Made by a program: the position numbers and the translations under genes. A DNA stretch of 64,000 nt from Promethearchaeota archaeon (GTDB lineage: Archaea; Asgardarchaeota; Lokiarchaeia; Sigyniarchaeales; SOKP01), in contig JAHPZI010000021.1 in the NCBI GenBank assembly GCA_019058295.1, positions 160,001 to 224,000 of the forward strand, read 5' to 3'. Below, piece after piece: positions 2,953 through 24,173 of this stretch. The notes below the pieces were generated by a model. The model was not told where the DNA came from. It saw only the letters and a program-made list of their open reading frames with translations, and searched no databases. Position 1 is the stretch's first letter. Each line of letters starts with the position of its first letter.

Positions 2953-5223
<2,271 letters not shown>

Positions 5224-8160: not shown

Positions 8161-8700
8161 ATGTTGAAAGATTCGTATGCAAATTCAGATATAAGTGAAA
8201 TTGATATTTCACATGAAGTTAAGATTGTAAATGTTATATGTCCTCTTTGTAAATCCAAAAAAGAAATTACTGTTCCAGTAACAATTATCAACCAAACAGG
8301 TCTAACAACAGTATCTATACCTAAAGATTTAGTTTGCAGCCATCATTTTCAAGTTTTCATTGATAAGCAATTTAAGGTTCGGGGTTATCAAAAAGTAGAC
8401 CTTGATTTGGCTCTTAATAAAAATAAGGAGTCTAATATTGATAATTTCAATAAAAAAGATGACGAGCTTTTCGAAAATCTAATTCTAGAAGGCAATTACC
8501 TTGAATATAATCCAAAGAAGGTAAAAAAGATACATATAAATAGTGAACCTGAAAAAATTGTATCCAATGAGGAAAAGGTAATGACTCTTAAAGAAATATA
8601 CGAAGAATTTTGGGAATTCATAGATGATGATAATCCTGAATTTAAAGAGTATATCATAAAAGATAAAAAGAGAAGACAAGGAGTAAAAAGAAGGAATTAA
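8161..8700 (+). CDS. Zn-finger hypothetical protein (CPxC...CxH.F...D...RGY family)
   Basis: CPLC...VCSHHFQVFIDKQFKVRGYQKVD; clearly paralogous to the N-terminus of 55044..55862. Confidence 0.75.
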   Translation: MLKDSYANSDISEIDISHEVKIVNVICPLCKSKKEITVPVTIINQTGLTTVSIPKDLVCSHHFQVFIDKQFKVRGYQKVDLDLALNKNKESNIDNFNKKDDELFENLILEGNYLEYNPKKVKKIHINSEPEKIVSNEEKVMTLKEIYEEFWEFIDDDNPEFKEYIIKDKKRRQGVKRRN

Positions 8701-8901: not shown

Positions 8902-10068
8902 ATGTATTTAAGCGGTCTAATAAGGAAAGAATTTAGTAGAATTAAAGCCGATAAAAGAACGTTAATTTTAATATTTACAATCCCAGTCATATTAATCGTG
9001 ATATTCGGTCTAACTAGTGGAGGAGGCCCCACTGAATTCTATAACGCTGCAATTATTTCTCGTGATAAAATACCATACGAAACTCCTGAATTCCCTGTCG
9101 AATCAAATTCTACCCTTAATTATGACGATATATTTATTGATGTTGTGGAGGATGATTGTTCAGCATGGGGCCTTATTGAATCGTACTCATGTGATAATGA
9201 GGAAGAGTATGATGATGCATTTGAAGAGTGCTTTGAGCTCCTAAGGAATGAAATCATAGATGTATTTATTATTTTAGAGGAAGATTTCTCTGAAACAATA
9301 GAGAACGAAACTGATACAACTCTTACTTATTACATCGATGGATCAGATTTAGAGGCGGTTGATGCAATTGATGTGGCGATTCAGGAACCGATTGGTTTGT
9401 TTAAAATTAAGGCGCGAAAGACGGCTAATTTTGTAATAATGGTTCCTTATCTGGAGTATGAAGTTCCTTTTTGGGAGACTCAGGTACTCAACTATGCCCT
9501 ATCCATAGTTTTATCAATGCTTATTCTAGGATTGTTAATGAATCTTACTTCTTTATCAATTGTGTCTGAAGGACCGCTCCCACGTATGATGCTTACTCCA
9601 ACAGCAAAAAAAGAAATAATCTTAAGTAAACTGATTGCAAATTCTATAATAATGTTATTACAGGTAACAATTATATTTGCTATGTCAGCGATATTTGGGA
9701 TGTTTTCTTTAGGATCATTGTTTAGTCTCTATTTGATTTTAATTGCAATAGGTTTTTGTGGGATTTGCATTGGATTATTCATTTCCTCAATAAGTAAGAC
9801 GGAACAACAAGCAAACCAAATTTATATAATGCTTTTTATCGCTTTATTGATGTTTTCAGGCTCATTCTTAAGAATGGATACATTACCACTCGCAATGCAA
9901 GTCATAATCAATGCGTTGCCATTAAGTCATGCCGTTCCATTAATAAATGAAGTTACTAAAAAAGGCTTACCTATTGATTTATTCCACTTTTTTAGTTTAA
10001 ATTTGATTTCTTTGGGGTTCATAATAGGAGCATATATTGCGTATAGATTTAAAAAAGTGGAGGTCTGA
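8902..10068 (+). CDS. ABC-2 (type V) transporter permease
   Basis: IRKEFSRIKADKR elbow helix, TM1, acidic extracellular domain, RMMLTP..K.EIILSK coupling helix, GLFISSISKTEQQA, FSG.F, LPLSHA. Confidence 0.92.
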   Translation: MYLSGLIRKEFSRIKADKRTLILIFTIPVILIVIFGLTSGGGPTEFYNAAIISRDKIPYETPEFPVESNSTLNYDDIFIDVVEDDCSAWGLIESYSCDNEEEYDDAFEECFELLRNEIIDVFIILEEDFSETIENETDTTLTYYIDGSDLEAVDAIDVAIQEPIGLFKIKARKTANFVIMVPYLEYEVPFWETQVLNYALSIVLSMLILGLLMNLTSLSIVSEGPLPRMMLTPTAKKEIILSKLIANSIIMLLQVTIIFAMSAIFGMFSLGSLFSLYLILIAIGFCGICIGLFISSISKTEQQANQIYIMLFIALLMFSGSFLRMDTLPLAMQVIINALPLSHAVPLINEVTKKGLPIDLFHFFSLNLISLGFIIGAYIAYRFKKVEV

Positions 10069-10074
10069 TAAATA

Positions 10075-11307
10075 TTGGATGAGAATAATCATAATACGAG
10101 TAGCATCGACACGTATGAAGGTGGTTTTTTAAAATTAAAAATTCGATTATTTCGATTGGTAAAACAGATAAAAAAAGAATTCCAGCTTTTAAAAACCGAT
10201 AAAGTAAATCTATTTATTGCCCTCGCACTACCACCACTAATAATATGGATGTTCGCTTCCATGTCTTCTGCTGGTGCCTCAGAGATCATTCCAGTTAAAT
10301 GTACTGTTGTTAGCTACGATTCCGAAGTATATGTCAATCAAGATAACTATACTATTACAACTTTTTGGGATAATTTTACTGAAAGATATTTAGACGCGGT
10401 CGAAAAATCTAAATATTTGGACCTTGTTGATTTCTACGATGCAAGTGAAGAAAAATATGCTATGGAAACGGCAAGAGATGATTTACGTGATAGTAAAATT
10501 GGAATTATAATTGAGATTCCTGTAGAGTTCTCAGAGTTTTTATCTACAGGTTTACCTGGTATAATCGAATGTATACCAGATTCCTCAGAAATATTCTATA
10601 TTCAAGAAAAACTCAATGCCGTTGAGGATTCAATTGATCTTTTTGTGGAAGATAACAATTTAGACCCTCAATTCGTCCGTATGGAATACGACGAGTACTC
10701 AGTGCCATCTGATTATAATTTCAGATTCAATTATAGCATGATTATATTATTTTCATTTATGATTTTTGGTATTAGCACTGTACTTACTATTTTAGTAGTT
10801 GTACAAGAAAAACCTATACCTCGTCTTTTGCTAACCCCAGCTAAAAAACATGAAATTCTCTTGTCCAAATATATTACATATTTAATTATTTTAGCGCTCC
10901 AAGTATTTCTAATTCTTTCAACTGCACTTCTTAATGGTCTCTATGTGGCTGGCTCGTTGTTTGATATATTTTTAGCCTTATTCATTTTAGGCTTAACGGG
11001 CGTCTCTTTAGGAATGTTTATCAGCACTGTTAGCAAAACTAAGACAGAAGCTAATCAATTATTCTTCGCCGCGTTCATTGTCATTGTCCTTTTGAGTGGG
11101 ATTTTTGTTCCCATAGAATCTATGCCTGAATATTTACAAATAGTGGCGTTTATCTTACCATTATCTCATGGAAAACCAATGATAAATGGAATCTTATCAA
11201 AAGGGAAATCAGTCTTTTGCTTCGACTTTTTTGCTTTGCTTATTTTAAGTATTGCATTTATATTACTTTCATTTTTGGTAATTAAAAGAAAAAGATATGA
11301 GGTGTAA
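10075..11307 (+). CDS. ABC-2 (type V) transporter permease (paralogue)
   Basis: KKEFQLLKTDK, RLLLTPAKKHEILLSK, GMFISTVSKTKTEA, LSGIFVPIESMPEYLQ, LPLSHG; TTG start after GGAGGT. Confidence 0.92.
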   Translation: MDENNHNTSSIDTYEGGFLKLKIRLFRLVKQIKKEFQLLKTDKVNLFIALALPPLIIWMFASMSSAGASEIIPVKCTVVSYDSEVYVNQDNYTITTFWDNFTERYLDAVEKSKYLDLVDFYDASEEKYAMETARDDLRDSKIGIIIEIPVEFSEFLSTGLPGIIECIPDSSEIFYIQEKLNAVEDSIDLFVEDNNLDPQFVRMEYDEYSVPSDYNFRFNYSMIILFSFMIFGISTVLTILVVVQEKPIPRLLLTPAKKHEILLSKYITYLIILALQVFLILSTALLNGLYVAGSLFDIFLALFILGLTGVSLGMFISTVSKTKTEANQLFFAAFIVIVLLSGIFVPIESMPEYLQIVAFILPLSHGKPMINGILSKGKSVFCFDFFALLILSIAFILLSFLVIKRKRYEV

Positions 11308-12333
11308 ATGATCGAAAAATCTGCTGAAATAATGGTAAATGTTGAAAATTTAAATGTTAAATTCGGAGACAAACAAGTTGTTCATAATGTATCTTTTCAA
11401 GTGAAATCCGGAGAAATAATCGGTTTATTTGGTATCAGCGGTGCTGGTAAAACAACAATTATACGAGTACTTACGTGCCAGCTCAATAAAAAGAACTGGA
11501 ATGGTAACGTAAAAGTCACGGATTTAAATCCCGCACAAAGTAAAAATCATCCGAAAATCTTAAGCAATATTGGATATGTTCCTCAACTTGAAGGACTCAA
11601 TCTTTACTATGAGTTGTCACCTATGACGAATGTAGAAATATTTGCATCAACATATGGATTGAAAAAAAAAAATGCGAAAGAAATAGCAAAAGAACTATTT
11701 TCGATACTTGACATTCCAGAAGATACTTGGAAAAAACGGCTAAAAAAATTAAGCGGAGGAGAAAAAAAGAGAGTTTCCGTAGCGATTGGTTTAATCCATC
11801 AGCCTAAAATTCTATTTCTTGACGAGCCTACGACTGGTGTTGATGCCGCAAAAAGATATGAAGTTCTTTCATATTTAAAAAAGTTAAATCGAAAATTAGG
11901 GACGACAATGTTTCTTATTACACACGATATGGAGGCAGCTTTAATATGTGATAAAAGCGCGATTTTGAGAGATGGAAAATTATTAGAATTCGATTCTAAT
12001 GATAATCTCATAGCATCACTCCCGAGTGGTGGCTTATTAACTAGATTAACTATTGAAGATCTTACTGAGAATAAAATAAAAATTATTAAAAATTTTACAC
12101 CCGTACAAAAAACTATACGTGTAGGAAATGAAATAATTGAAGTGTTTATTGAGGATTTTGAAGAAAACCTTCAAAAATTAATTGAATATACGATAAAAAA
12201 CAATTTAAAAGTTACGTCCATGAGTAAGGATAATGCTACTTTTAGAAGGTATTTCCAGATTAGAATCCAAGAAGAAGAGGAGAAAGAAAGGACATTAAGA
12301 GAAAGCGTACAGATAATGGAAGGTGAGGCATAA
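11308..12333 (+). CDS. ABC transporter ATP-binding protein (ABC-2 type)
   Basis: Walker A GISGAGKTT, Q-loop YVPQ, signature LSGGE, Walker B LFLDEPT, H-loop ITH, C-terminal accessory domain. Confidence 0.95.
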   Translation: MIEKSAEIMVNVENLNVKFGDKQVVHNVSFQVKSGEIIGLFGISGAGKTTIIRVLTCQLNKKNWNGNVKVTDLNPAQSKNHPKILSNIGYVPQLEGLNLYYELSPMTNVEIFASTYGLKKKNAKEIAKELFSILDIPEDTWKKRLKKLSGGEKKRVSVAIGLIHQPKILFLDEPTTGVDAAKRYEVLSYLKKLNRKLGTTMFLITHDMEAALICDKSAILRDGKLLEFDSNDNLIASLPSGGLLTRLTIEDLTENKIKIIKNFTPVQKTIRVGNEIIEVFIEDFEENLQKLIEYTIKNNLKVTSMSKDNATFRRYFQIRIQEEEEKERTLRESVQIMEGEA

Positions 12334-15300
12334 TAGAGAATAAAGCAAAACGAAAATTAAAAATATTATTATTATTATCAGCATTATTCGCTTTACAAAT
12401 TACCATTTTAGCTGTAATAAACTATCCTTGGATAAAATATTATGATGATGATGAACTTCAAGATTTGAAAGAAGATATGATGGAATTTTCATATTCACAC
12501 AAAAATTCTGATTCTGATCTTTTTATTGAACCTGAAATCGACGCAAACTTCCGTGCAATTGATTCAATTGATTTTTCTCAGGTTAATCCATATTTAACCG
12601 ATTTAATTTCTCCTAGGTCAATTAGTTATATTAAGGATTATGATGAGTTCTTTTTTGATTATTTATTTGAAAAACAGAACAATAATGGTTCATTTTCTGA
12701 TATTGGTGGGTTAGGCAACATGTTTTCAACTTATGAGGTAATAGAAATTATAGATTTATTAAATCCTACTTATTTTTATTTAAAATCCGATGAAATTGGG
12801 AAAATTTTAACTTATATCCAAAATTGTCTTGTAGAGAATGGATGGGGTTTTAAATATAATGAATACGCCCCTTTACCCGATATTATATCTACATATTGTG
12901 CAATTCATATGGCTAATATATTTAACGCCAAATCCATTCTTAGTAATCCAAATATTACTAATTATGTAGAACTAAGCACTTGGGCTGGTGAACCTGTTGA
13001 GCAATTGTATTATAGAATTAAAGCTTATTTAGAATTAGGGCAAAAATTCAATCAATTTCAAAATGATACTATTGCAAATTATCTTAAGAGTCTTAGAAAC
13101 ATCGATGGTGGATACTCTAACGTTGGAGGAGCCAACGTTCAATCTACTTTTTATGCATTATCATCAATGTATAGTTTAAATATTATGCCAGATGAAGCTA
13201 ATGAAACACTTCAGTTTGTCCTTAATTGTGGGAAGTTAGATGGAGGTTTTGGATCAGATCCTTATTTGAACAGTAGTTCAGATTTTACATCTGGATGGGC
13301 TGCCATGAAATCAATAGATTTACTCAAAGATAAGGTTAATTTACCAGGTGTGAATATCGAAACCTATATTCAAAATTATTATAACTGGTTATACACCCAT
13401 CAAGCAAAGAACGGATTATTTGGGCAAACTTCACTTGAAGCAAATTATTTAGGAGCATTATCGATATATCTCGTCGAGCCTGATAATTTTACTGATTATG
13501 TTGATATAGATAATATGTGGGACTATGTTGAAGATTGTTATAATAAAGGAGATGGAGGGTTTAGCTCTCAACCTGGTGGAAGTACAAGTTTATTAGCAAC
13601 TTATCATGCAATTAATCTTTATGAAATATTACTTATTTATTCAGATATTTCTCTTCCTGATAGAAAAGATATCATTGATTATTTAGTTGATCTTCAAGAT
13701 GATGATGGAGGATTTGAATTAGGGATTGATATAAATGAAATTATGTCACTTTTTGGACCATTAAGTCAAATGTTTACAGATCTAATTGAACCAGATGCAC
13801 CAACTATTGAAAGTACATATTGGGGTGTAGTATCGCTAAAAATTTTAGATGCTTTGGATAAGATAGATGAGGAAAATTTAATTCATTGGATTTCAGCAGC
13901 CCAAAGCGCTGATGGGGGTTTTCCAATAGTTTTAGGGTTTCATAGCGACACTATTTCAACTTATTTTGGATTAAAAACTTTAAAAATTTTAAAAATAGAA
14001 CCTATGTCAACAATTGCGGCAATAGAATTTTTGAAAAAAGCCCAAGATGAAGATGGAAGCTTTGTTCCGATCCCTGTAATCTCAGATCTTTTTGAGTTTC
14101 CATCGACATTTTTCGTATCATATTTCGCAGCAATGGGACTATACGAATATGATTTTCAACCAGAAAATATTGAAGATTTAATTGATTGGTACGAAGATTG
14201 TCTCAGTTCTAACACAGGAGGAATTGGAGACTTTCCTATGTTTGGTGGAGATTTAAGAAATACTCCATATGGTATAATGCTCATTGAAGAATTAAGTTAT
14301 GACCAAAGTTTTAACCCAAAACCTTGGAACGATTTAATTACTTCAATCTTTATTATAGAAATTTTAATATTACTTTTATTTGGCATGCTAAAGATTATTT
14401 CCTTATTAAATGTAACAGTTTCCAAAAAATTGAAAGAAAGATTTGGAGTCGGTGAAAAATATAATATATCATATTTGGAAAAGTTCCCAGCCATTTTATG
14501 CGATAGTGTAAATATTTTTGCTGGTAGAAAGTTAATAGTTGAGTCTGTGTCGATGAAATTAAAGCATGGAGAAATTTTAGGAGTCTTAGGAGAGAGTGGT
14601 GCTGGTAAGTCAACATTTGTAAAATCACTTTTAGGAATGCGAAAATATAATGGAAAAATTCAGATTTATGGTATGAATGTCAAGAAGAAACATAAGAAGA
14701 TGCGACCAATTTATGGTTATGTCCCCCAAGATCTTGGTAAAATTTACCTAAATTTCACGACTTTGCAAAATATAATGTATTTCGGAAAGCAATACGATAT
14801 GACAGAGAAATTGATTATGCAAAAAACAAAGCGGATATTAACCGCTTTAGAAATTGAAGATAAAATGCATGAAAAGGTTAAAAATTTATCTGGTGGTCAA
14901 AAAAGACGTGTATCCATTGCTATGGCATTAATTCATGATCCTATTATCATTTGGATGGATGAACCGACTAGTGGATTGGATCCAGTTGTGAGGGAAAATC
15001 TTTGGCTAGCATTGACTAAAATTAATGAACAATTTAATTCAACCTTAATAGTTGTAACTCATTATCCTGAAGAATCTCAATTTTGCCACCGCGTTGCCAT
15101 ATTTGGGAGAATGAGAGGGATGATAGATTATGGCCGTCCTAAAGATTTATTAGCTCAATTACCAGGTAAAGGAAGAACTGTAGACTTATATTTTAATGAG
15201 GTAAATGAAAATGCGATTGAAAGGCTCGAATCCATTGAAGGTATTGATAAAGCTCTTGAAAATAAAGCGGGAACTGATTTTTCTTTACTTTCCGATTTGA

Positions 15301-15431
15301 ATATAAACTCGATAGAAGAAAAAATTAAATTAAATTTTGGTAATGATTCTATTAAAGATATAAATCAGAACGATACAAAGATGGAACAATATTTTAGATA
15401 TAAAGCGATGGAGGTTCCAAAATTAGAATGA
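12333..15431 (+). CDS. Membrane-anchored prenyltransferase/squalene-cyclase-repeat ectodomain fused to ABC ATPase
   Basis: N-terminal basic+hydrophobic signal/anchor (KAKRKLKILLLLSALFALQITILAVI) upstream of the track start; about 11 repeats of (Y/W/F)L...Q..DGGF....STY.A; one TM; intact NBD (GESGAGKST, YVPQ, LSGGQ, WMDEPTSGLD, VVTH). ATA 12333 overlaps the upstream TAA, 6 nt after AGGTGA. Confidence 0.85.
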   Translation: MENKAKRKLKILLLLSALFALQITILAVINYPWIKYYDDDELQDLKEDMMEFSYSHKNSDSDLFIEPEIDANFRAIDSIDFSQVNPYLTDLISPRSISYIKDYDEFFFDYLFEKQNNNGSFSDIGGLGNMFSTYEVIEIIDLLNPTYFYLKSDEIGKILTYIQNCLVENGWGFKYNEYAPLPDIISTYCAIHMANIFNAKSILSNPNITNYVELSTWAGEPVEQLYYRIKAYLELGQKFNQFQNDTIANYLKSLRNIDGGYSNVGGANVQSTFYALSSMYSLNIMPDEANETLQFVLNCGKLDGGFGSDPYLNSSSDFTSGWAAMKSIDLLKDKVNLPGVNIETYIQNYYNWLYTHQAKNGLFGQTSLEANYLGALSIYLVEPDNFTDYVDIDNMWDYVEDCYNKGDGGFSSQPGGSTSLLATYHAINLYEILLIYSDISLPDRKDIIDYLVDLQDDDGGFELGIDINEIMSLFGPLSQMFTDLIEPDAPTIESTYWGVVSLKILDALDKIDEENLIHWISAAQSADGGFPIVLGFHSDTISTYFGLKTLKILKIEPMSTIAAIEFLKKAQDEDGSFVPIPVISDLFEFPSTFFVSYFAAMGLYEYDFQPENIEDLIDWYEDCLSSNTGGIGDFPMFGGDLRNTPYGIMLIEELSYDQSFNPKPWNDLITSIFIIEILILLLFGMLKIISLLNVTVSKKLKERFGVGEKYNISYLEKFPAILCDSVNIFAGRKLIVESVSMKLKHGEILGVLGESGAGKSTFVKSLLGMRKYNGKIQIYGMNVKKKHKKMRPIYGYVPQDLGKIYLNFTTLQNIMYFGKQYDMTEKLIMQKTKRILTALEIEDKMHEKVKNLSGGQKRRVSIAMALIHDPIIIWMDEPTSGLDPVVRENLWLALTKINEQFNSTLIVVTHYPEESQFCHRVAIFGRMRGMIDYGRPKDLLAQLPGKGRTVDLYFNEVNENAIERLESIEGIDKALENKAGTDFSLLSDLNINSIEEKIKLNFGNDSIKDINQNDTKMEQYFRYKAMEVPKLE

Positions 15432-17179
15432 GTCTTACTCGAGTGCCACAATTAGAGGTTCTAAGATTAAAAATTGTTGATGCAATTCGATTTTCGGAAA
15501 AATATTGGATGATTTATAGAGAAAGAACCTTTGGAATTGCTACTATTTTAGATTTAATTTATAAAAGATTATATATTGAAATCTTATTTTTCACCAATGA
15601 GGATGTAAAGAAACGCGGTGTTCCCCTCATAAAAATATATACCCCAACAGAGACTGAATTTGATTTTATTGAAATTATAGTGGATCCAGATATTGATAAA
15701 GATGGACTTGTTAGCCCTAAAAAAATAATAGAAAGAGTTAATAAGCTGATTAAAAAAGAGTTAGAATATCATTTAAACATATTGGATAATGAAATTCAAT
15801 TAATTGATGAGCATTTTGAAAACAGTCCAGTTTATGGGAATCCTTACTTCAGAAAGATAAGAATTTATCTTCCGGATCTAATTATTAAATTCAAGATTAA
15901 TTTAGAAAAATACCCTCTTGAACCAAAATTAATGGAAAAAAATCAAATTATAATTGAAAAATATATAAAAACATATATAGATCGTTTTAAAGAGATATTA
16001 AGAGAGAAAATTACAGGTGTAGGCAGGCAAAAAGTAAAAAAGATGAAATCCTTTATGGAAGATCTTTCTATAAACACAGATGTAATTAAAGGTTGGGATG
16101 CTGAGAACCCGCCTCATGTCTTCCAAATAATTAGATCATTATTTAACTTAAAGGAGGGTACACAGAGTCTCGTACTTAATAATATATCTTCTGGAGACGA
16201 TATTAAAGATATAATATTTAGGATTCATAGAGGTCAATCAATTGGAATCTTTTACGATTTAGAATCATCAAGTGAATTGAGATCAACTTCACCAATCATG
16301 AAATTATTTAATATGATAGCGGGATCTCAATTAATAGATTCAGGAGATATCAAATTATTTGGAAAACATATACAGTTGGCTACGAATGATGAGTTGAAAA
16401 AAATTGTTATAACTTCGCATTTAATTGATGAGAGAATATTAAATATGTCTATTAAGAAAGCAGTACAGTACAATATTAAAATAAAACCAAAATGGAAAAT
16501 CAGAAAGAGAGCTTTTAGCACTAAAGTAAAATATGCTGGAATTTTTAGTAAAATTGACGAGATTATATCGTTGCCTCCAAAATACAAGACTAAAAAGAGC
16601 TTTATAAACTCCGCATTAGAAGTAACAGGACTATTAAACAGAAAAAAAGAAAAAGTGTCTAAACTTTCTAATATAGATCGTTTATTATTATCAATCTCAA
16701 GAGAACTTCTAAAATCACCTGATATAATTATGTTCTCTGTACCTCCACGCAAGTTAGAACGGATTCAAGGTGAAAATTTTAACGATTTTATGAATAAAAT
16801 AAAAAAGAAGTTTCACGTTATCTTAATAATTCATGGTCGTAAAAATATTGTTTCAAACTGCGATAAAATCCTTATGGTTTCTGGAAAAATTGCTGAACTT
16901 GGCACTGTCAATGATTTTATTTCTAAGATTCCCAATTTTGGTGAAATCATCACGATTGAATTAAATAACCCTGATATTGACGCATTGAAAAAAATGCTAG
17001 AAATTAAATCAGCAACCTTTATTACAGAACGTGTTAACGAAAAATACAAAATCTTTTCAAGAAAGAATCCAGATCAATTGATAATTAAATTAATGGAAAT
17101 CGTTGGCCCGTATATTTATAATTATAAAAAATATAAAGCATCAATGCTTGAATATTTAGAATTTTTTAATTTAAATTAA
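15428..17179 (+). CDS. RWD/UBC-like domain(s) fused to degenerate ABC ATPase
   Basis: FKINLEKYPLEPKL...GWDAENPPHVFQII resembles an E2/RWD fold. The C-terminal half has ABC fold landmarks (RGQSIGI, IDSGDIKLFGK, ALEVTGL, KVSKLS, LLKSPDII, CDKILMV) but no Walker A lysine, LSGGQ or DE. Confidence 0.7.
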   Translation: MSLTRVPQLEVLRLKIVDAIRFSEKYWMIYRERTFGIATILDLIYKRLYIEILFFTNEDVKKRGVPLIKIYTPTETEFDFIEIIVDPDIDKDGLVSPKKIIERVNKLIKKELEYHLNILDNEIQLIDEHFENSPVYGNPYFRKIRIYLPDLIIKFKINLEKYPLEPKLMEKNQIIIEKYIKTYIDRFKEILREKITGVGRQKVKKMKSFMEDLSINTDVIKGWDAENPPHVFQIIRSLFNLKEGTQSLVLNNISSGDDIKDIIFRIHRGQSIGIFYDLESSSELRSTSPIMKLFNMIAGSQLIDSGDIKLFGKHIQLATNDELKKIVITSHLIDERILNMSIKKAVQYNIKIKPKWKIRKRAFSTKVKYAGIFSKIDEIISLPPKYKTKKSFINSALEVTGLLNRKKEKVSKLSNIDRLLLSISRELLKSPDIIMFSVPPRKLERIQGENFNDFMNKIKKKFHVILIIHGRKNIVSNCDKILMVSGKIAELGTVNDFISKIPNFGEIITIELNNPDIDALKKMLEIKSATFITERVNEKYKIFSRKNPDQLIIKLMEIVGPYIYNYKKYKASMLEYLEFFNLN

Positions 17180-17191
17180 ACATAAAAAAAT

Positions 17192-18016
17192 GTGAGTAAA
17201 AAAATGATAAAAAGTTTTTACATAATGAAACAAAATGGATTGTTGATATATTCAAAGAATTACACGAAAGAAGACTTTGAAGATAATATCATGATTGGTT
17301 TTTTTGCTTCAATCGCAAATTTTAGCAGAGAGGCCTTACGGAGTGTGATAAAATATATCGATTTGGGTCAAGATAATAAATTAATATTAGCTGAACAACA
17401 AGATGAAAAATTAGTGGCTGCAGCAATAGTTAATTCTTCAGACGATAATGACCTTATTACTAAAGTTCTTAATAACATCATGCACGAAATTATCATTATG
17501 TTTTCACCAGATTATGAATCTGACAAAATAGATATAAACGAAATGGAAAAAATAATAGATGGAAATATAAAAAATAAAACTAGCTTATCTACAATAAAAA
17601 GACTTGTTCTCTCGTGGATTATTTTAGTACCTATTACCATCTTAATTGCCATCTTAAATCTAATGGCAACTTCGTATTATTTTCAATACATTTTTTTTGA
17701 AGAGCGCACATATTCTCAAGAAGAATTAATTACTGAAGTAATTCCTGAAGTAATGGTTATATCAATGGTAATTGTAGTAATTGTTTTTGTACTTCCAAAT
17801 CTTATCTCCGGCTATATTACTTTAAATCGGAATTTAGCATTTTTAAATTCGGGGTTATATCTTGTAGTAATACTCATTGCCTATTTATATTCAGTAGATC
17901 CGCTATTTTTCTTTGTTATTCTTTTCTATTTACCTGCTGCTATTTTCACATCAAATGTTTTTGCATATATTGGTTTTAGATTAGGAATTAAAAAAAAAAT
18001 TGTAAAAAAAAAATAA
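17192..18016 (+). CDS. Longin-like domain protein with about 4 C-terminal TM helices
   Basis: IKSFYIMKQNGLLIYSKNY...MIGFFASIANFSRE...IKYIDLG...LVAAAIV longin pattern followed by hydrophobic segments. Confidence 0.75.
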   Translation: MSKKMIKSFYIMKQNGLLIYSKNYTKEDFEDNIMIGFFASIANFSREALRSVIKYIDLGQDNKLILAEQQDEKLVAAAIVNSSDDNDLITKVLNNIMHEIIIMFSPDYESDKIDINEMEKIIDGNIKNKTSLSTIKRLVLSWIILVPITILIAILNLMATSYYFQYIFFEERTYSQEELITEVIPEVMVISMVIVVIVFVLPNLISGYITLNRNLAFLNSGLYLVVILIAYLYSVDPLFFFVILFYLPAAIFTSNVFAYIGFRLGIKKKIVKKK

Positions 18017-18033: not shown

Positions 18034-19398
18034 TTACTTTTCTTCTGATACTTTTACAAATTTAAGGACCAATAGTCCCAGTAGCATAATAATCCCCATA
18101 GCAAGTAAACCTAAACCCCACGCGTATTTACCAATCACATCAGCACTCAGTAAAATAGCTCCAAAAATTATAGGCCCTAAGGATGCCGATGCCTTTCCAC
18201 TTATGCTTGTAAAGCCAAAATACTCCCCAAATTTTTCTTTAGGTGAGATCCTTGTCACCATGATTCTGTTTGCGGTCCAAGTGCCCCCAAGTGCGGGTCC
18301 AGCGACGACCCCCATTATAATACTAAGCATGAAAGGATAATTTAAGCCAATATCGATATAACGAAAGGCAAAAATTAAATAAATACCTAATATCAGAGAG
18401 ATTGCCCATAAAAAGCATACTAAATAAAAGCAAATTTTTGGACCATGTTTTTCTCCAAACTTTCCAACGAAATAAGTAAAGATTACAGCTGAAAATGTTG
18501 CTATTATTATGAAAAGCACACCAAATATATCAGAAGCTTTACCTCCTGTTCCAATAATAAGACCATCAGTTATAAGAGGCATCATAAAGATAACTAAAGT
18601 CTGTGCGATATTACCAATTAAAAAATACGCAAATATATAGATGACCATTGGTTTATGTTGTTTTATATCCTTAAGTGTGGCTTTTAATTGTCTGAAGGAA
18701 TCACCAATTCTTTTACCAACGGGAGGAATTTGTCCTGTTTTTTGTTTTTCACGAACTATGAAAAATGGAATCATCAGAACGAGAAAAAGAACCATGGGTA
18801 AAACAAATGTTATCCAATAACCAGCGTAACCGTATGAAAGATCTCCTTGAGTTGGATCACTTACGACATCACCCCACATAATCATTAATGGTAGCAGAAC
18901 AATTAAAGAGATAATAGTACCAAAATATCCCCATGCAATCCCAAACCCAGAGACTTTTCCTATATCTTCTTTTTTAGCAATAAAAGGAATCATGGCATCG
19001 TAGAAAATCAGACTTAATTGATAAGAAACATTCGCAAGGACGTAAAAGATTAGTACAACGATTAGACTATGGAAAAAACCGAGTAGACTCGCAAAAAGAA
19101 TGCAAAGTCCGCCCAAACTTATAACATACGGTTTCCGTTTCCCACTTTGATCACCAAAGGCGCCAACGATAGGAACTGTAATCGCTAATCCTGCTTGCAT
19201 AAGACCTTGAACAAGCCCAAAAATAAAGCTTGCTTGACCATAAGTTATTCCATCTTCCAGCTGAGCAATGACCATTATATATCGAAAAATGATTAAGCTT
19301 ACAATTACCATTGAATAAATCGTATTTGCCAAATCATACATAGCCCAGAAAAATACATTTTTTTTATCAGTTTTAGTTTCTACTTCCACTTCATTCAT
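18034..19398 (-). CDS. MFS transporter (UMF1/Atg22-like)
   Basis: WAMYDLANT, GAFGDQSGKRK (motif A), FYDAMIP, VSGFGIAWGYFG, GEYFGF; 12 TM. Confidence 0.9.
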   Translation of the reverse strand: MNEVEVETKTDKKNVFFWAMYDLANTIYSMVIVSLIIFRYIMVIAQLEDGITYGQASFIFGLVQGLMQAGLAITVPIVGAFGDQSGKRKPYVISLGGLCILFASLLGFFHSLIVVLIFYVLANVSYQLSLIFYDAMIPFIAKKEDIGKVSGFGIAWGYFGTIISLIVLLPLMIMWGDVVSDPTQGDLSYGYAGYWITFVLPMVLFLVLMIPFFIVREKQKTGQIPPVGKRIGDSFRQLKATLKDIKQHKPMVIYIFAYFLIGNIAQTLVIFMMPLITDGLIIGTGGKASDIFGVLFIIIATFSAVIFTYFVGKFGEKHGPKICFYLVCFLWAISLILGIYLIFAFRYIDIGLNYPFMLSIIMGVVAGPALGGTWTANRIMVTRISPKEKFGEYFGFTSISGKASASLGPIIFGAILLSADVIGKYAWGLGLLAMGIIMLLGLLVLKFVKVSEEK

Positions 19399-19502
19399 AT
19401 TGAATCATCTTACGGTATTTCTAATTTAAAAATATGGTTTAATTTATTTAAAGATGATAATAAAAAAAAGAAATTAAATAATGAGAAAACTATAATTATT
19501 TA

Positions 19503-20654
19503 ATGGAGTATAATCTAAGAGATTTTTTTCTTCCACCATTATTCATATCGTTGGGGCTTGGTTATCAAATTTTCATATATTTTTTATATCAATATTATAA
19601 GGCTAAAAAAGAGAAATTAGAATTTACTGAAATTTTACTAGCTTATGGATTAATATTTGGATTAACTCTAACAGGATTTTTCATTCGTATAATAAATCTT
19701 TATTATACAAGAGAAATTAATATTGAAATCTTTCATTTCTTAACGAAAATAACTTTTCTTATCCTTTATTCAGCTTTAATGTTGTTTTTCATTATAATAT
19801 CAACCAAATCCTTCCAAAAAATCATAAACTCAATTTTTACAAAAATTTTAGCAATTTTATTAATTATACCAATGATTACAGTCTTTTTATTTCAACCTGA
19901 AAACCTTTTATTTGGTCTCATTTCTGGAATAACTCTCGGGATATCATATTCATATATCTTTTATTTTCATACTAGACTGATTAAAATTTCTACAGGTGAT
20001 ATAAAAAAAAGATTAAACCTCATACTTTTAGGATTAACATTATGTGCGATACAACATTTTATTGGAGGATATTTCCCCAGTTATGTATTATTTAAAGGTT
20101 ATAGTGAGCACCTTCAATTAATTTCTGCTCCAATATTTGTTTGTGGATTAATTATTGTTTTTTTAGGCGTTTTTAGATTTCCCGCCTTTCTTGAATTTGG
20201 ATGGAAAGAATCTCTACTATATGTTTTTATTATAAATCAAAGTAATTTAAAAGTAATTTACACATTTGATTTCAAAGAAATCATAAATCAACGTGGAAAA
20301 CCAATAAATAAACTTTCGGATATCAATGAAATTAAGCAGTTTTTTTCAAGCGGGATTATTGGAATCAATAAGATTATATCAGGTATAACAAACTCAAAAT
20401 CTGAATTTATTGAATCAATTAGACAAAAAGATTTCATAATTCTTTTGAATCGTGGAGATGAGCCTCAATCTTATATAATTTATTGTATATTAGTTAGTAA
20501 AGATATGAACAGCCTTAGATATTTTTTAAAAACAATTAAAAAGGAATTTGAACAGATCTATAAAAATATACTCATTAATATGAATGATCTAGAAGGCAAA
20601 GAAGAAAAAATATTCTCAAATTTTGATGCGATTATGAAAAAATTAATTGAATAA
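19503..20654 (+). CDS. 7TM membrane protein with C-terminal longin-like domain
   Basis: Seven hydrophobic segments, linker PAFLEFGW, then LLYVFIINQ...FFSSGIIGINKII...IESIRQKDFIILL...YCILV...LRYFLKTIKKEF. Confidence 0.78.
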   Translation: MEYNLRDFFLPPLFISLGLGYQIFIYFLYQYYKAKKEKLEFTEILLAYGLIFGLTLTGFFIRIINLYYTREINIEIFHFLTKITFLILYSALMLFFIIISTKSFQKIINSIFTKILAILLIIPMITVFLFQPENLLFGLISGITLGISYSYIFYFHTRLIKISTGDIKKRLNLILLGLTLCAIQHFIGGYFPSYVLFKGYSEHLQLISAPIFVCGLIIVFLGVFRFPAFLEFGWKESLLYVFIINQSNLKVIYTFDFKEIINQRGKPINKLSDINEIKQFFSSGIIGINKIISGITNSKSEFIESIRQKDFIILLNRGDEPQSYIIYCILVSKDMNSLRYFLKTIKKEFEQIYKNILINMNDLEGKEEKIFSNFDAIMKKLIE

Positions 20655-20663
20655 GAAAAATTT

Positions 20664-21752
20664 ATGGGTATTAAATTGATTTTAAATGAATTCCCTATAA
20701 AAGGACCCTTAAAAGAACCATTATTAGTATTAGAATCATTAATAGTTTTTTCTTTTATAGAACTGGCAGTTATATTTTGGATGAGAATTAGAAAAAGTGA
20801 ATTAAAAAAATCACTGGAAAAAGGATATATCTGGTTATTTCTTGGTTATTCTCTTTTGAGGTTTTTTACAATAGTTGGGGATTATTATGTTGATGGTTTT
20901 CATTTTAGAACTTTATTTTTAAATGTAGGCTATTTAATTCAAATGGCATTTTTAATTAATTTTGTAAGAATTATGGAAAATTACAAAGTTTTTATTAGAA
21001 AATACTTATTTACTAAGATTTGTTTGGTTTTAATTTTTATTTATTTCATAGTTTTATTCATTGATAGTAATTATGTGATCTTTTTTTTAATTTCATTTTG
21101 GATATTTTTTTTAGTATTCTTTATAATTTATTTGAAGGATTTAGGATCAAAATTTAATAATAAAATAGATTTAAGAAGTTTTAAACTAAATTTGCTTAAA
21201 TTTTATATAGGAATGATTTTAATAGTTGTAGGATCTGCTACAACTATGGACTTTGTGATCGAGATTTTTGGATTTGGTATCCGCCTTATAGGAAATATCC
21301 TTCAACTAATTGGGGTAATTTTTATTTCATTTTTCTTTTTTTCTATTCCTTCTTATAGTGAATATGATTGGCAAGATAAAATTATTAGCGTTTTTATAAT
21401 GCATAAATCTGGTCTTTTTATCTATAAAAAGTCTTTTAGAGAAAAAGCCTCTCCAATTGATGAATCAGTCATTACAGGTGCATTGACAACTATAGAAATG
21501 ATGTTAGAAAAAGTAAGCCACATTGATAGTATTTCTATAATTAAAAAGAAAGAAAAAATTCTAATTTTTCAACCAGGGAGATTTATTTATGGGGTTTTAA
21601 TATGTGAGGAAGAGTTAGAATCCCTTAAAATTTTATTGAGTAAATTTATTAGTAAAATTGAAACAATTTATTCTAATGTTCTTGAGGATTGGGATAGAAA
21701 TTTAAATGTTTTTACGCCAATTGAAGGCATCGCGAAGGAAATTTTTTATTAA
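20664..21752 (+). CDS. 7TM membrane protein with C-terminal longin-like domain (paralogue)
   Basis: Seven hydrophobic segments, linker PSYSEYDW, then ISVFIMHKSGLFIY...VITGALTTIEMML...FIYGVLIC...LKILLSKFISKIE. Confidence 0.8.
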   Translation: MGIKLILNEFPIKGPLKEPLLVLESLIVFSFIELAVIFWMRIRKSELKKSLEKGYIWLFLGYSLLRFFTIVGDYYVDGFHFRTLFLNVGYLIQMAFLINFVRIMENYKVFIRKYLFTKICLVLIFIYFIVLFIDSNYVIFFLISFWIFFLVFFIIYLKDLGSKFNNKIDLRSFKLNLLKFYIGMILIVVGSATTMDFVIEIFGFGIRLIGNILQLIGVIFISFFFFSIPSYSEYDWQDKIISVFIMHKSGLFIYKKSFREKASPIDESVITGALTTIEMMLEKVSHIDSISIIKKKEKILIFQPGRFIYGVLICEEELESLKILLSKFISKIETIYSNVLEDWDRNLNVFTPIEGIAKEIFY

Positions 21753-21914
21753 TAGCAAAATTTTCAATCAGAAATATTATTTCAGTTATAAGAATTATGG
21801 ACTTTAAAATATGGTTAATAAAAACAAGTATTACTTATCAATAAATATTAAATTTTTAAATAAAAATCAATATTAGAAATATGAGTACAATTTAAGAGTT
21901 CTTGGAGGATAACT

Positions 21915-22454
21915 ATTTCATCGGATTATTCTTTTAAAATCTGTATATTTGGAGATACGGGAGTTGGGAAAACCTCTTTAATTTCTAGATATCTAGGTGA
22001 ACAGTTCGAAAAAGATATTGGAAAAGATATGGAAAGATCAATGGGAGTGGATATTAATCATAAAAATATAGTAGTAGATGATATAAAGGTTTCATTGCAG
22101 ATATGGGATTTAGTAGGTGAGGAACGATTTAGAACTATGTTACCTTTTTATTTACGTGGATCATCTGGTGGTATTTTCATGTATGACACTACTCGGGAGG
22201 AAAGTTTGAACAAGATAGATGAATTGCTTAATATATTTAAGGAAAGTAATGCTGGAATGCAGGTTCCAATTATAATGGTTGGAGGAAAATCAGATCTTCA
22301 GGAAATGAGAACTGTTTCTATTAAAAAAGCGGATAGTATCTCAAAATCCCATGATTTTTATGATTATATTGAATGCTCTTCTAAAACGGGGGAAAATGTT
22401 GAGTTCTTATTCAATACACTAACTAGACTAATTTTAAAGAAGATTGGTTTGTAA
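21915..22454 (+). CDS. Rab/Ras-like small GTPase
   Basis: P-loop FKICIFGDTGVGKTSL lies upstream of the track start (22029); G3 WDLVGEERF, G4 GGKSD, G5 ECSSKTGENV. ATT 21915 is 6 nt after GGAGG; in-frame TGA at 21882. Confidence 0.92.
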   Translation: MSSDYSFKICIFGDTGVGKTSLISRYLGEQFEKDIGKDMERSMGVDINHKNIVVDDIKVSLQIWDLVGEERFRTMLPFYLRGSSGGIFMYDTTREESLNKIDELLNIFKESNAGMQVPIIMVGGKSDLQEMRTVSIKKADSISKSHDFYDYIECSSKTGENVEFLFNTLTRLILKKIGL

Positions 22455-24155: not shown

Positions 24156-24173
24156 AAAAAGAGGTGAAAAAAA

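What the first reader, a model, noticed from the sequence alone, without database searches (positions are those of the whole stretch)
12333..15431. Receptor-like ABC ATPase with an extracellular prenyltransferase/terpene-cyclase-type barrel
Seen: signal/anchor, then about 600 aa of acidic sequence with about 11 Q..DGGF/STY repeats and several N-x-S/T sequons (NGS, NIT, NDT, NET, NSS, NFT), one TM, then an NBD with all catalytic motifs intact. Known: these repeats form (alpha/alpha)6 barrels in protein prenyltransferase beta subunits and squalene-hopene cyclases, and ABC NBDs are not normally attached to single-pass ectodomains. The DxC Zn ligand motif of GGTase/FTase is not evident. Inference: a double-barrel isoprenoid or lipid acceptor/sensor physically coupled to the ATPase across the membrane.
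Basis: partly seen in the sequence, partly recalled or inferred. Interest (0 to 1): 0.8.

Follow-up and report, generated by a model that had tools for sequence, protein, structure and literature searches.

The report
ABC ATPase tethered to outside double barrel
An Asgard archaeon makes one of the two motor (ATPase) subunits of a membrane exporter as a single protein. Its front two-thirds is a large, apparently non-enzymatic, prenyltransferase/terpene-cyclase-shaped double barrel displayed outside the cell. The design is conserved and unstudied, and its cargo is unknown.

Summary
Window 12333-15431 (+) encodes a 1032-aa protein with this order of parts:
- a K/R-rich N-terminus
- TM1
- an acidic ectodomain of about 630 aa (pI 4.05)
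- TM2
- a DrrA-type ABC ATPase with every catalytic motif intact
- a C-terminal regulatory domain

The ectodomain model is confident (pLDDT 90.6, pTM 0.90). It consists of two alpha/alpha toroids. Protein prenyltransferase beta subunits are the closest solved folds (Z about 27). Squalene-hopene cyclase is the only solved chain listed that aligns across both barrels (Z 19.3, 456 residues).

Neither enzyme's catalytic signature is conserved: there is no D-x-C...H zinc site and no DxDD.

The fusion is a single-copy family. It has more than 110 sequence clusters and occurs in about 85 of 400 Asgard genomes, mostly Loki-type. It always lies in a conserved six-gene cassette: two ABC-2 permeases, a soluble ATPase, this protein, a dead ATPase and a small membrane protein. 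Its nearest non-fused relatives are archaeal surface proteins with a C-terminal anchor.

Best reading: it is the second ATPase of a type V exporter, and its outside barrel receives or holds a hydrophobic, possibly isoprenoid, cargo. The cargo is inferred, not shown.

The sequon argument fails for this protein. The gene starts at a non-canonical ATA.

This scan has reported the same system in at least nine other genomes. I found no paper on it.

The parts
12322..12328 (+). Shine-Dalgarno-like GGTGAGG ahead of the non-canonical start
   Evidence: Read directly. The same GGTGA-type motif lies 5-8 nt before an ATA or ATT in many orthologous loci.
12333..12335 (+). ATA start codon, overlapping the TAA stop (12331-12333) of the upstream ATPase gene
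   Evidence: No canonical start occurs before TM1. ATG-started homologues align at this point. At least 12 of 21 orthologous loci also lack a canonical start before TM1.
12333..15431 (+). Whole gene: 1032-aa TM1 / double-toroid ectodomain / TM2 / ABC ATPase fusion (stop codon included)
   Evidence: Translation. Pfam PF00432 plus PF00005. Full-length model pLDDT 88.
12360..12428 (+). TM1 (residues 10-32), an N-in signal anchor preceded by a K/R-rich cytoplasmic stub
   Evidence: Kyte-Doolittle peak 2.74. 5 K/R in the first 10 residues. Helix 3-29 in the model.
12447..12632 (+). Helix 39-54 plus conserved segment 55-100 (H56, N58, E66, P67 nearly invariant). The helix appears to be the first helix of barrel B.
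   Evidence: for conservation. The prenyltransferase-beta alignments begin at this helix and end near residue 657.
12633..13352 (+). Barrel A (about residues 101-340), the membrane-distal alpha/alpha toroid inserted into barrel B
   Evidence: Helix pattern. Repeat loops at 115, 168, 258 and 303. Squalene-hopene cyclase aligns over 456 residues spanning both barrels. The boundaries are approximate and are inferred from alignment ranges.
13353..14312 (+). Barrel B (about residues 341-660), the membrane-proximal (alpha/alpha)6 toroid and the best-conserved part of the ectodomain
   Evidence: Foldseek hit 3dss_B: TM 0.70, rmsd 3.0, 299 columns. VIA Z 27 to GGTase-I, GGTase-III and FTase beta. Column identity 0.63 against 0.58 for barrel A.
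14316..14423 (+). TM2 (residues 662-697), with a conserved Glu676 inside the hydrophobic stretch
   Evidence: Kyte-Doolittle peak 2.73. One helix 662-704 in the model. E676 present in 44 of 50 homologues.
14424..14489 (+). Basic juxtamembrane linker (698-719). The model is low-confidence at 700-709, but residues 709-724 are well conserved.
   Evidence: pLDDT below 50 at 700-709. K709, Y714, L715, A720, C723 and E724 are at least 90% conserved.
14490..15182 (+). ABC nucleotide-binding domain (720-950): Walker A 14589-14615, Q-loop 14718-14732, LSGGQ 14886-14900, Walker B 14943-14963, D-loop 14970-14981, H-loop 15051-15065
   Evidence: Pfam ABC_tran 3.5e-27. drrA subfamily 1.1e-46. Motif coordinates. 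Invariance. VIA Z 29 to 1vpl and 4yer.
15183..15428 (+). C-terminal regulatory-type domain (951-1032), as in DrrA-like, NosF and ABCA ATPases
   Evidence: Beta-alpha-beta elements at 948-1026 in the model. 4yer and NosF align to about residue 1027. ABCA3 NBD2 plus R domain aligns to query 734-1018.
8902..11307 (+). Context: two ABC2_membrane_3 permease genes (388 and 410 aa). Each has TM1, an acidic outside domain of about 155 aa, and then five more TM helices.
   Evidence: Pfam PF12698 7e-27 and 6e-26. Hydropathy. Syntenic in 9 of 10 loci examined; the tenth ends at a contig edge.
11308..12333 (+). Context: soluble DrrA-type ATPase NBD1 (341 aa, motifs intact), the likely dimer partner of the fusion's ATPase
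   Evidence: drrA 2.2e-57. Sequence. NBD1 is the closest relative of the fusion ATPase (161-183 bits) and lies on the same side of a 95% SH-aLRT branch.
15428..18016 (+). Context: a 583-aa protein with a degenerate ABC ATPase domain, and a 274-aa protein with about 4 C-terminal TM helices. These close the cassette.
   Evidence: Only weak NBD-family hits over residues about 290-550. Hydropathy. Synteny. Co-occurrence with the fusion in about 80 genomes.

Best explanation
The gene encodes the second ATPase subunit of a heteromeric ABC-2 (type V) exporter. The likely composition is permease 1, permease 2, soluble ATPase NBD1 and this protein.

Its N-terminus and ATPase are cytoplasmic. Two TM helices bracket an acidic domain of about 630 aa that lies outside the cell. 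That domain is a non-catalytic double alpha/alpha toroid. The membrane-proximal barrel is built like a protein prenyltransferase beta subunit. A second barrel appears to be inserted after its first helix, as in squalene-hopene cyclase.

Because the ATPase is covalently tied to this domain, exactly one copy would be held next to the outside domains of the permeases.

Inferred mechanism: ATP binding and hydrolysis by the NBD1/fusion dimer drive the permeases to expel a hydrophobic, probably isoprenoid-type, molecule from the membrane. The barrel receives it, shields it or passes it on at the cell surface.

Shown here: architecture, topology, fold, loss of the enzyme motifs, intact ATPase, conserved operon and restriction to Asgard archaea. 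Inferred: subunit stoichiometry, the acceptor role and the nature of the cargo.
For: - Topology: two TM helices, positive-inside on both sides, ectodomain pI 4.05 against 9.1 for the cytoplasmic part.
- Fold: Pfam Prenyltrans 1.4e-38. A profile search of solved structures gives RabGGTase beta 3e-24, FTase beta 1e-17 and SHC 0.01. The ectodomain model has pLDDT 90.6 and pTM 0.90. Foldseek finds RabGGTase beta at TM 0.70 and rmsd 3.0. VIA gives Z 27 for three prenyltransferase betas, against 19.3 for SHC over 456 residues and 15-18 for generic barrels.
- Non-catalytic: no conserved DxDD, no D-x-C and only one conserved His. The RabGGTase beta zinc ligands align to T, E and S.
- ATPase: all motifs are invariant in 50 homologues and this is the best-conserved region, 0.81 column identity.
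- Exporter context: two ABC2_membrane_3 permeases and a DrrA-type ATPase lie directly upstream. The nearest solved permease is the ceramide-binding insect ABCH-9C.
- Cassette order is kept in 8 of 10 loci, down to 32-34% identity.
- The fusion ATPase and NBD1 are each other's closest relatives. In the quick tree, in both clades the class- and phylum-level genomes branch outside the same-family genomes.
- Family size: more than 110 fused clusters, about 85 of 400 Asgard genomes, single copy. Every full-length relative at 50% clustering carries the ATPase.
Against: - No ligand, pocket or complex was examined.
- The (alpha/alpha)6 fold also serves as a protein binder or thioester domain (complement TED, Z 15-17) and as a glycan enzyme (Z 15-18).
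- The TM2-to-ATPase linker is low-confidence at 700-709, so its geometry is unknown.
- The cassette has a third, dead ATPase that could instead be the partner of the fusion's ATPase.
- The diphosphate substrates of the enzyme relatives are cytoplasmic, so the fold does not point to a specific outside ligand.
Confidence: 0.5

Rival explanations
1. Force-transmitting machine. Nothing crosses the membrane through this subunit. Instead, ATP-driven closing and opening of the ATPase dimer moves TM2 and reshapes the outside barrel. The barrel then acts on an extracellular target, for example by loading, releasing or remodelling a surface component. MacB, LolCDE, FtsEX and NosDFY use ATP in this way to do work outside the membrane.
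For: The ATPase and ectodomain are linked through a single helix, 662-704 in the model. The ATPase plus regulatory domain matches NosF of NosDFY, an ABC-2 complex that serves a periplasmic partner. The conserved Glu676 in TM2 suggests a specific helix-helix contact.
Against: The permeases are six-helix ABC-2 proteins, not four-helix MacB/FtsX types. The linker at 700-709 is low-confidence and may be flexible. No target is encoded in the cassette.
Confidence: 0.2
2. Outside-in sensor. The barrel binds an environmental or partner-derived ligand, and occupancy tunes the ATPase, and so the exporter, from outside the cell. It may signal onward through the dead ATPase and the small membrane protein.
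For: The layout is receptor-like: ectodomain, one TM helix, cytoplasmic nucleotide-binding domain. Two conserved accessory proteins of unknown role lie in the cassette.
Against: The ATPase is a normal, fully competent transporter ATPase and sits beside its permeases. The neighbouring GTPase and 7TM genes of this window are not syntenic with the cassette in other genomes. No kinase, transcription factor or other output domain is present.
Confidence: 0.15
3. Extracellular enzyme. The toroids catalyse a reaction on the exported substrate outside the cell, for example cyclisation, transfer or hydrolysis, using residues unlike those of the known enzymes.
For: Every close fold relative is an enzyme acting on isoprenoids. 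Several acidic and polar residues are nearly invariant: H56, E66, D123, D183, D466, D539, D633, D640, R642 and N643.
Against: No DxDD and no D-x-C...H triad. Most of the conserved Asp residues sit in the repeat's own DGG and SD-x-x-STY structural positions. Activated diphosphate substrates are not expected outside the cell; this rests on established knowledge, not on a test here.
Confidence: 0.08

Closest known systems
Protein prenyltransferase beta subunits (RabGGTase/GGTase-III beta, FTase beta, GGTase-I beta; Pfam PF00432)
   Same: Both have the (alpha/alpha)6 toroid built from DGGF-type repeats. This is the best sequence match (3e-24) and the best fold match (Z 27, rmsd 2.9, about 285 residues; TM 0.70).
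   Different: Here there are two barrels, not one. The domain is outside the cell. It has no zinc ligands and no alpha-subunit partner in the cassette. It is bracketed by TM helices and fused to an ABC ATPase.
Squalene-hopene cyclase / oxidosqualene cyclase (class II terpene cyclases, beta-gamma didomain)
   Same: Two alpha/alpha barrels lie in one chain, with one apparently inserted after the first helix of the other. SHC aligns over 456 residues (Z 19.3) and OSC over 452 (Z 17.6).
   Different: The rmsd of 7.5 A means the two barrels are oriented differently. There is no DxDD acid. Sequence similarity is marginal (E 0.01). SHC is a monotopic cytoplasmic-face enzyme, not an ectodomain.
Prokaryotic ABC-2 / type V exporters with DrrA-like ATPases (DrrAB, T. 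maritima TM_1403 4yer, NosDFY, RbbA/YbhFSR group)
   Same: The ATPase plus C-terminal domain match: drrA 1e-46, and 4yer and NosF by fold. The partner permeases are ABC2_membrane_3. Prokaryotic DrrA-like ATPases score higher against the family profile (90-148 bits) than ABCA (76-107).
   Different: No listed member has its ATPase tethered through a TM helix to a large outside domain. This cassette also carries a dead third ATPase and an extra membrane protein.
Eukaryotic ABCA and insect ABCH lipid exporters
   Same: They share the type V fold, a large outside domain between TM1 and TM2 of each permease half, and a regulatory domain after each ATPase. They are the top solved sequence matches for the ATPases and for permease 2 (ABCH-9C).
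   Different: There is no special kinship. In a quick tree ABCA groups with bacterial DrrA-like ATPases, apart from the Asgard cassette ATPases. The outside domains of ABCA are unrelated to a prenyltransferase toroid.
LptB2FGC and MlaFEDB (works-like analogy only)
   Same: From established knowledge: an ABC motor extracts a lipid from the membrane and hands it to an outside lipid-holding domain that is anchored by a single TM helix beside the permeases (LptC, MlaD).
   Different: There is no sequence or fold relationship. In those systems the anchored domain is a separate protein and is not fused to the ATPase. The analogy was not tested here.
Archaeal surface proteins made of prenyltransferase-type repeats with a C-terminal TM anchor (e.g. 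Woesearchaeota MBR9675433.1, annotated 'terpene cyclase/mutase family protein')
   Same: These are the next-best relatives of the ectodomain in 1.8 billion representatives (about 230 bits and below). They have an N-terminal signal or anchor, repeats, and one TM helix at the very end.
   Different: They have no ATPase after the anchor. They match in 5-8 separate stretches rather than end to end. They are uncharacterised themselves.

Membership tests
Protein prenyltransferase beta subunit (enzyme) | (alpha/alpha)6 barrel of PFTB repeats | tested here: met
   PF00432 1.4e-38. Z 27 to GGTase-I, GGTase-III and FTase beta.
Protein prenyltransferase beta subunit (enzyme) | Zinc site Asp-x-Cys ... His (RabGGTase beta D238, C240, H290) | tested here: not met
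   These ligands align to T, E and S in the HMMER alignment. No column pair in 50 homologues has D-x-C, and the ectodomain has only one conserved His, H56. The test is by sequence only; no residue-level structural superposition was available.
Protein prenyltransferase beta subunit (enzyme) | Cytoplasmic heterodimer with a PPTA-repeat alpha subunit | tested here: not met
   The domain lies between two TM helices opposite the cytoplasmic ATPase. No alpha-subunit gene lies in the conserved cassette.
Class II terpene cyclase (SHC/OSC) | Two alpha/alpha barrels, gamma inserted in beta | tested here: inconclusive
   SHC aligns over 456 residues at Z 19.3 but with rmsd 7.5. Single-barrel matches span residues 8-628 of the ectodomain model with about 285 aligned. 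The insertion topology is inferred from ranges, not from coordinates.
Class II terpene cyclase (SHC/OSC) | Catalytic DxDD motif | tested here: not met
   D.DD is absent from this protein and present, at non-equivalent places, in only 3 of 50 homologues.
ABC ATPase, DrrA-like (ABC-2) subfamily | Walker A, Q-loop, LSGGQ, Walker B with catalytic Glu, D-loop, H-loop | tested here: met
   All are present at residues 753-911 and invariant in 50 homologues. drrA TIGR01188 scores 1.1e-46, which is below its full-length cut-off because it is a subfamily model.
ABC ATPase, DrrA-like (ABC-2) subfamily | Encoded with ABC-2 permeases | tested here: met
   Two PF12698 permease genes and a second ATPase gene lie directly upstream. 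Both permease genes sit beside the fusion in 9 of 10 loci; the tenth is cut at a contig end. The window's gene order is kept in 8.
Type VII mechanotransmission ABC (MacB/FtsX/LolCE) | Four-TM permease with a large outside domain between TM1 and TM2 | tested here: not met
   The permeases have six hydrophobic segments and match ABC2_membrane families, not FtsX.
Thioester domain of alpha-2-macroglobulin/complement | CGEQ thioester motif in an alpha/alpha toroid | tested here: not met
   The fold similarity is only generic (Z 15-17). The conserved Cys residues sit in ..C-x-x-x-DGGF repeat positions (C299, C402, C623), and there is no CGEQ.
Transcobalamin/intrinsic factor-like binder | alpha6/alpha6 barrel plus a small beta domain that clasp cobalamin | tested here: inconclusive
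   Not among the 50 best rows of either fold search, which does not exclude it. The model shows no beta domain.

The most novel reading that the evidence does not exclude
The outside double barrel is a dedicated acceptor for isoprenoid membrane lipids or polyprenyl carriers. That would make this cassette the first archaeal lipid-extraction machine, a functional counterpart of Lpt, Mla or ABCA1. It could move ether lipids or polyprenyl-linked material out of the Asgard cell membrane, for example to surface structures, protrusions, vesicles or syntrophic partners.
Probability: 0.2. Interest if true: 0.85.

Novelty: new variant of a known kind. Interest (0 to 1): 0.62.

Why it matters
ABC ATPases are normally soluble subunits, or are fused to their own permease. 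One that is tied through a single helix to a 630-residue outside domain is a layout I found in no paper and in none of the solved ABC structures returned by the fold and sequence searches.

The layout fixes one copy of a prenyltransferase/cyclase-shaped barrel on the outer face of a lipid-exporter-type pump. It occurs in the archaeal group closest to eukaryotes, whose membranes are made of isoprenoid lipids and whose cell surfaces and protrusions are poorly understood.

If the barrel holds isoprenoid lipid, it would give a first handle on how archaea move lipids out of the membrane. If it does not, it is still a defined, conserved surface module with an intact motor, suitable for structure determination.

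It also shows that annotation pipelines truncate this gene, because it starts at ATA or ATT in many genomes.

Tried and rejected
Gene neighbourhoods were taken from the genome search and the fetch from genomes instead.

Searches that did not help
- The search for related loci on genome contigs chose ATPase motifs as patterns. It returned generic ABC ATPases and only one true relative. I reused those loci as the prokaryotic comparison set.
- Foldseek with the full-length model returned only ATPase matches. The ectodomain had to be folded alone.
- Paper searches found nothing on this fusion or cassette. only notes that archaeal homologues of prenyltransferase subunits are common.

Ideas considered and rejected
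- A special link to eukaryotic ABCA. ABCA tops the solved-structure lists. Against the family profile, however, it scores below bacterial DrrA-like ATPases, and it does not group with the Asgard ATPases in the tree. The ABCA rows are an artefact of that tool's length window.
- A functional link to the 7TM-longin and Rab-like genes a few kb downstream. They are absent next to the cassette in the ten other loci examined.
- N-glycosylation sequons as evidence for an outside location in this protein.
- A thioester domain (no CGEQ).

Could not be done
- Cavity analysis. Model coordinates are not exposed to the script box.
- Prediction of the multi-subunit complex. Only single chains can be folded.

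Full report
**The gene and its start.** The window is about 30% G+C. Its homologues are named as Promethearchaeota/Lokiarchaeota and other Asgard MAGs. The reading frame of the finding is open from 12327 to the stop at 15429-15431. It holds no ATG, GTG or TTG until 12465, and a start there would remove the first hydrophobic helix. Homologues that do start with ATG begin M-E/D-x-K-T-K-R-K-L-K followed by a TM helix, in exact register with the two ATA codons at 12330 and 12333. A GGTGAGG motif lies at 12322-12328. In 21 orthologous loci, at least 12 likewise have no canonical start before TM1. Instead they have a GGTGA-type motif followed 5-8 nt later by ATA or ATT; four have ATG and one has TTG.

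**Topology.** Only two segments are hydrophobic enough to span a membrane, residues 10-32 and 666-697. Five of the first ten residues are K/R, and TM2 is followed by a K/R-rich stretch. The part between the helices has pI 4.05 and the part after TM2 has pI 9.1. The C-terminal part is an ABC ATPase and must be cytoplasmic. With two spanning helices, the 630-residue middle part is therefore outside the cell.

The sequon argument does not hold for this protein. It has 6 sites in the 635-aa ectodomain and also 6 in the 333-aa cytoplasmic part. Across 50 homologues, sequons are about twice as dense outside (2.1 against 1.0 per 100 aa), and seven positions are conserved. This protein has lost several of those positions.

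**The ectodomain fold.**
- Pfam finds Prenyltrans (PF00432) at 1.4e-38 in three stretches.
- A profile of 20 orthologous ectodomains matches solved RabGGTase beta (3e-24), FTase beta (1e-17), GGTase-I beta (2e-13), a drimenyl-diphosphate synthase (2e-10) and squalene-hopene cyclase (0.01).
- AlphaFold2 models are confident: full length pLDDT 88, ectodomain alone pLDDT 90.6 and pTM 0.90.
- Foldseek ranks RabGGTase beta first, with TM 0.70 and rmsd 3.0 over 299 columns for 3dss_B.
- An all-against-representatives structural search puts three prenyltransferase beta subunits at Z 27 (rmsd 2.9, about 285 residues). They stand clearly above SHC-type cyclases (Z 19-20) and generic (alpha/alpha)6 barrels such as epimerases, glycosidases and complement thioester domains (Z 15-18).

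The single-barrel alignments run from the first ectodomain helix (39-54) to about residue 657 yet align only about 285 residues. SHC and oxidosqualene cyclase align over about 455 residues. I read this as follows. A membrane-proximal barrel B is made of helix 39-54 plus about 341-660. A distal barrel A, about 101-340, is inserted after its first helix. That is the beta-gamma topology of class II cyclases, but with a different inter-barrel angle (rmsd 7.5). This rests on alignment ranges only, because I had no coordinates.

**The ectodomain is not one of the known enzymes.**
- The zinc ligands of RabGGTase beta align to T, E and S.
- No D-x-C is conserved anywhere in the ectodomain, and only one His (H56) is conserved.
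- The conserved Cys residues (C299, C402, C623) sit in the repeat position just before the DGGF loop.
- D.DD is absent from this protein and is not conserved in the family.
- There is no CGEQ thioester motif.

**The ATPase.** Residues 720-950 carry Walker A, Q-loop, LSGGQ, Walker B with the catalytic Glu, D-loop and H-loop. All are invariant in 50 homologues. This is the most conserved region of the protein, with 0.81 mean column identity against about 0.6 for the barrels. The best family model is drrA (1.1e-46). The best folds are T. maritima TM0544 (1vpl) and TM_1403 (4yer), both at Z 29, and NosF. A C-terminal domain (951-1032) matches the regulatory domains of 4yer, NosF and ABCA3.

**Context.** Directly upstream lie two ABC2_membrane_3 permease genes. 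Each encodes TM1, an acidic outside domain of about 155 aa and then five more TM helices. A soluble DrrA-type ATPase gene with intact motifs follows. Downstream lie a 583-aa protein with a degenerate ATPase domain and a 274-aa protein with about four TM helices.

In ten loci taken from other Asgard genomes, the order permease-permease-ATPase-fusion is kept in eight. These include genomes whose fusion protein is only 32-34% identical. The 583-aa gene follows in all eight and the 274-aa gene in seven of them. One further locus is rearranged and one is cut by a contig end. Strong matches to the 583-aa protein occur in essentially the same genomes as the fusion. The solved protein nearest to permease 2 is the insect ceramide transporter ABCH-9C.

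**Distribution and origin.**
- A word-indexed search found more than 110 clusters (at 90% identity) of about 1000-1070 aa carrying both Pfam domains. All that bear a name are Asgard: Loki, Thor, Hermod, Hod and Hel.
- Among 400 Asgard species genomes, about 85 have a strong, single-copy match inside an open frame of about 1050 aa. That is 75 of 134 in the window's own family, most other families of its class, and one genome of another class. Some complete genomes of the same family lack it.
- A filter-free profile search of 1.84 billion representatives with the ectodomain found 4694 proteins with related repeats. Only about a dozen full-length 50%-identity clusters match end to end, and every one of them carries the ATPase.
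- The next tier, at about 230 bits and below, consists of proteins with an N-terminal signal or anchor, repeats and a single TM helix at the extreme C-terminus, or a multi-TM tail. None of these has an ATPase. Two that carry names are a Woesearchaeota protein and other archaeal 'prenyltransferase/squalene oxidase repeat' proteins.
- The simplest history is that a C-terminally anchored surface protein became fused to the ATPase gene that followed it.

**Relationship of the ATPases.** Against a profile of the fusion's ATPase core, the scores were:
- the cassette's own NBD1: 161-183 bits
- the best bacterial and archaeal DrrA-like ATPases: 90-148 bits
- eukaryotic ABCA: 76-107 bits
- ABCB: about 58 bits

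In a quick maximum-likelihood tree of 114 rows with SH-aLRT support only, the fusion ATPases form one clade (100) and the NBD1s another (97). Together with two dead ATPases of the cassette, they are separated from all other rows by a branch with 95% support. ABCA groups with bacterial sequences. In both clades the class- and phylum-level genomes branch outside the same-family genomes. The careful search did not finish, several branches are long and the tree is unrooted. I therefore take this as support for duplication within the cassette and against a special ABCA link, not as proof.

**Mechanism.** What is shown fits one subunit of a heteromeric type V exporter whose ATPase is permanently tied to an outside, non-catalytic double toroid. 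I think it most likely (about 0.5) that the fusion's ATPase pairs with NBD1 on the two permeases, and that the barrel sits beside their outside domains and receives or holds the hydrophobic cargo they expel.

An isoprenoid cargo is suggested only by two facts. All close fold relatives bind isoprenoids, and archaeal membranes are isoprenoid-based. This is inference.

The rivals are force transmission to an outside target (0.2), an outside-in sensor (0.15) and a new extracellular enzyme (0.08). Two details deserve follow-up. One is a Glu conserved inside TM2 (E676, 44 of 50). The other is a strongly conserved juxtamembrane segment at 709-724, which lies next to a stretch the model cannot place.

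**Novelty.** I found no paper on the fusion or the cassette. Public annotations call it only 'ATP-binding cassette domain-containing protein' or 'prenyltransferase/squalene oxidase repeat-containing protein'. This scan has reported the same system in at least nine other genomes, with similar conclusions. I rate it a new variant of a known kind: an ABC-2 exporter with an accessory outside domain, but with an unprecedented covalent link between ATPase and ectodomain.

Noticed in passing
window 12322-12335, and loci L082-L104 at the orthologous gene starts: This gene family habitually lacks a canonical start codon. At least 12 of 21 orthologues have the conserved K/R-rich N-terminus and TM1 upstream of any ATG, GTG or TTG. 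A GGTGA-type ribosome-binding motif is followed 5-8 nt later by ATA or ATT. Many database entries for the family are N-terminally truncated for this reason.
   Followed up: partly
window 14358-14360 (Glu676 in TM2): An acidic residue inside the second TM helix is conserved in 44 of 50 homologues. This suggests a specific polar contact with another membrane subunit. No partner residue was identified.
   Followed up: no
window 8161-8700 (+): A 179-aa soluble protein with a CPLC...C-x-HH zinc-ribbon-like motif lies next to the cassette in 5 of the 11 loci compared (the window plus 4 of 10 others). It sits sometimes upstream of permease 1 and sometimes after the last gene. It may be a seventh associated gene.
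   Followed up: partly
window 18034-22454: The MFS transporter, two 7TM proteins and a Rab-like GTPase lie between the cassette and the FAD-binding/CCG oxidoreductase genes (22671-25562). They are absent at this position in five related genomes, where the FAD gene (79-88% identical) lies 0.3-2.5 kb beyond the cassette with none of these four genes in between. This block therefore looks like an insertion in this lineage.
   Followed up: partly
window 27027-31469 (+): A 1480-aa ORF with a weak Prenyltrans match near its N-terminus (4.6e-9) and a PCI-domain match near residue 1318-1381. It has no N-terminal signal, and its hydrophobic helices occur only at about 1424-1470, so it is probably a tail-anchored cytoplasmic protein. 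It is unrelated in layout to the fusion.
   Followed up: partly
window 3007-5223 (+): A catalase-peroxidase (KatG-type peroxidase domain, 1.8e-71) sits in a local G+C peak: 0.39-0.41 against about 0.30 for the rest of the window.
   Followed up: no
The genome search handles G135 and G138 (same order as the window's genome): Two single-contig genomes of about 4.4 and 6.0 Mb in the same order gave no match to the ectodomain and only a weak generic match to the dead ATPase. The cassette is therefore an accessory system and is not universal in Loki-type archaea. The identity of these genomes is not given by the tool.
   Followed up: no
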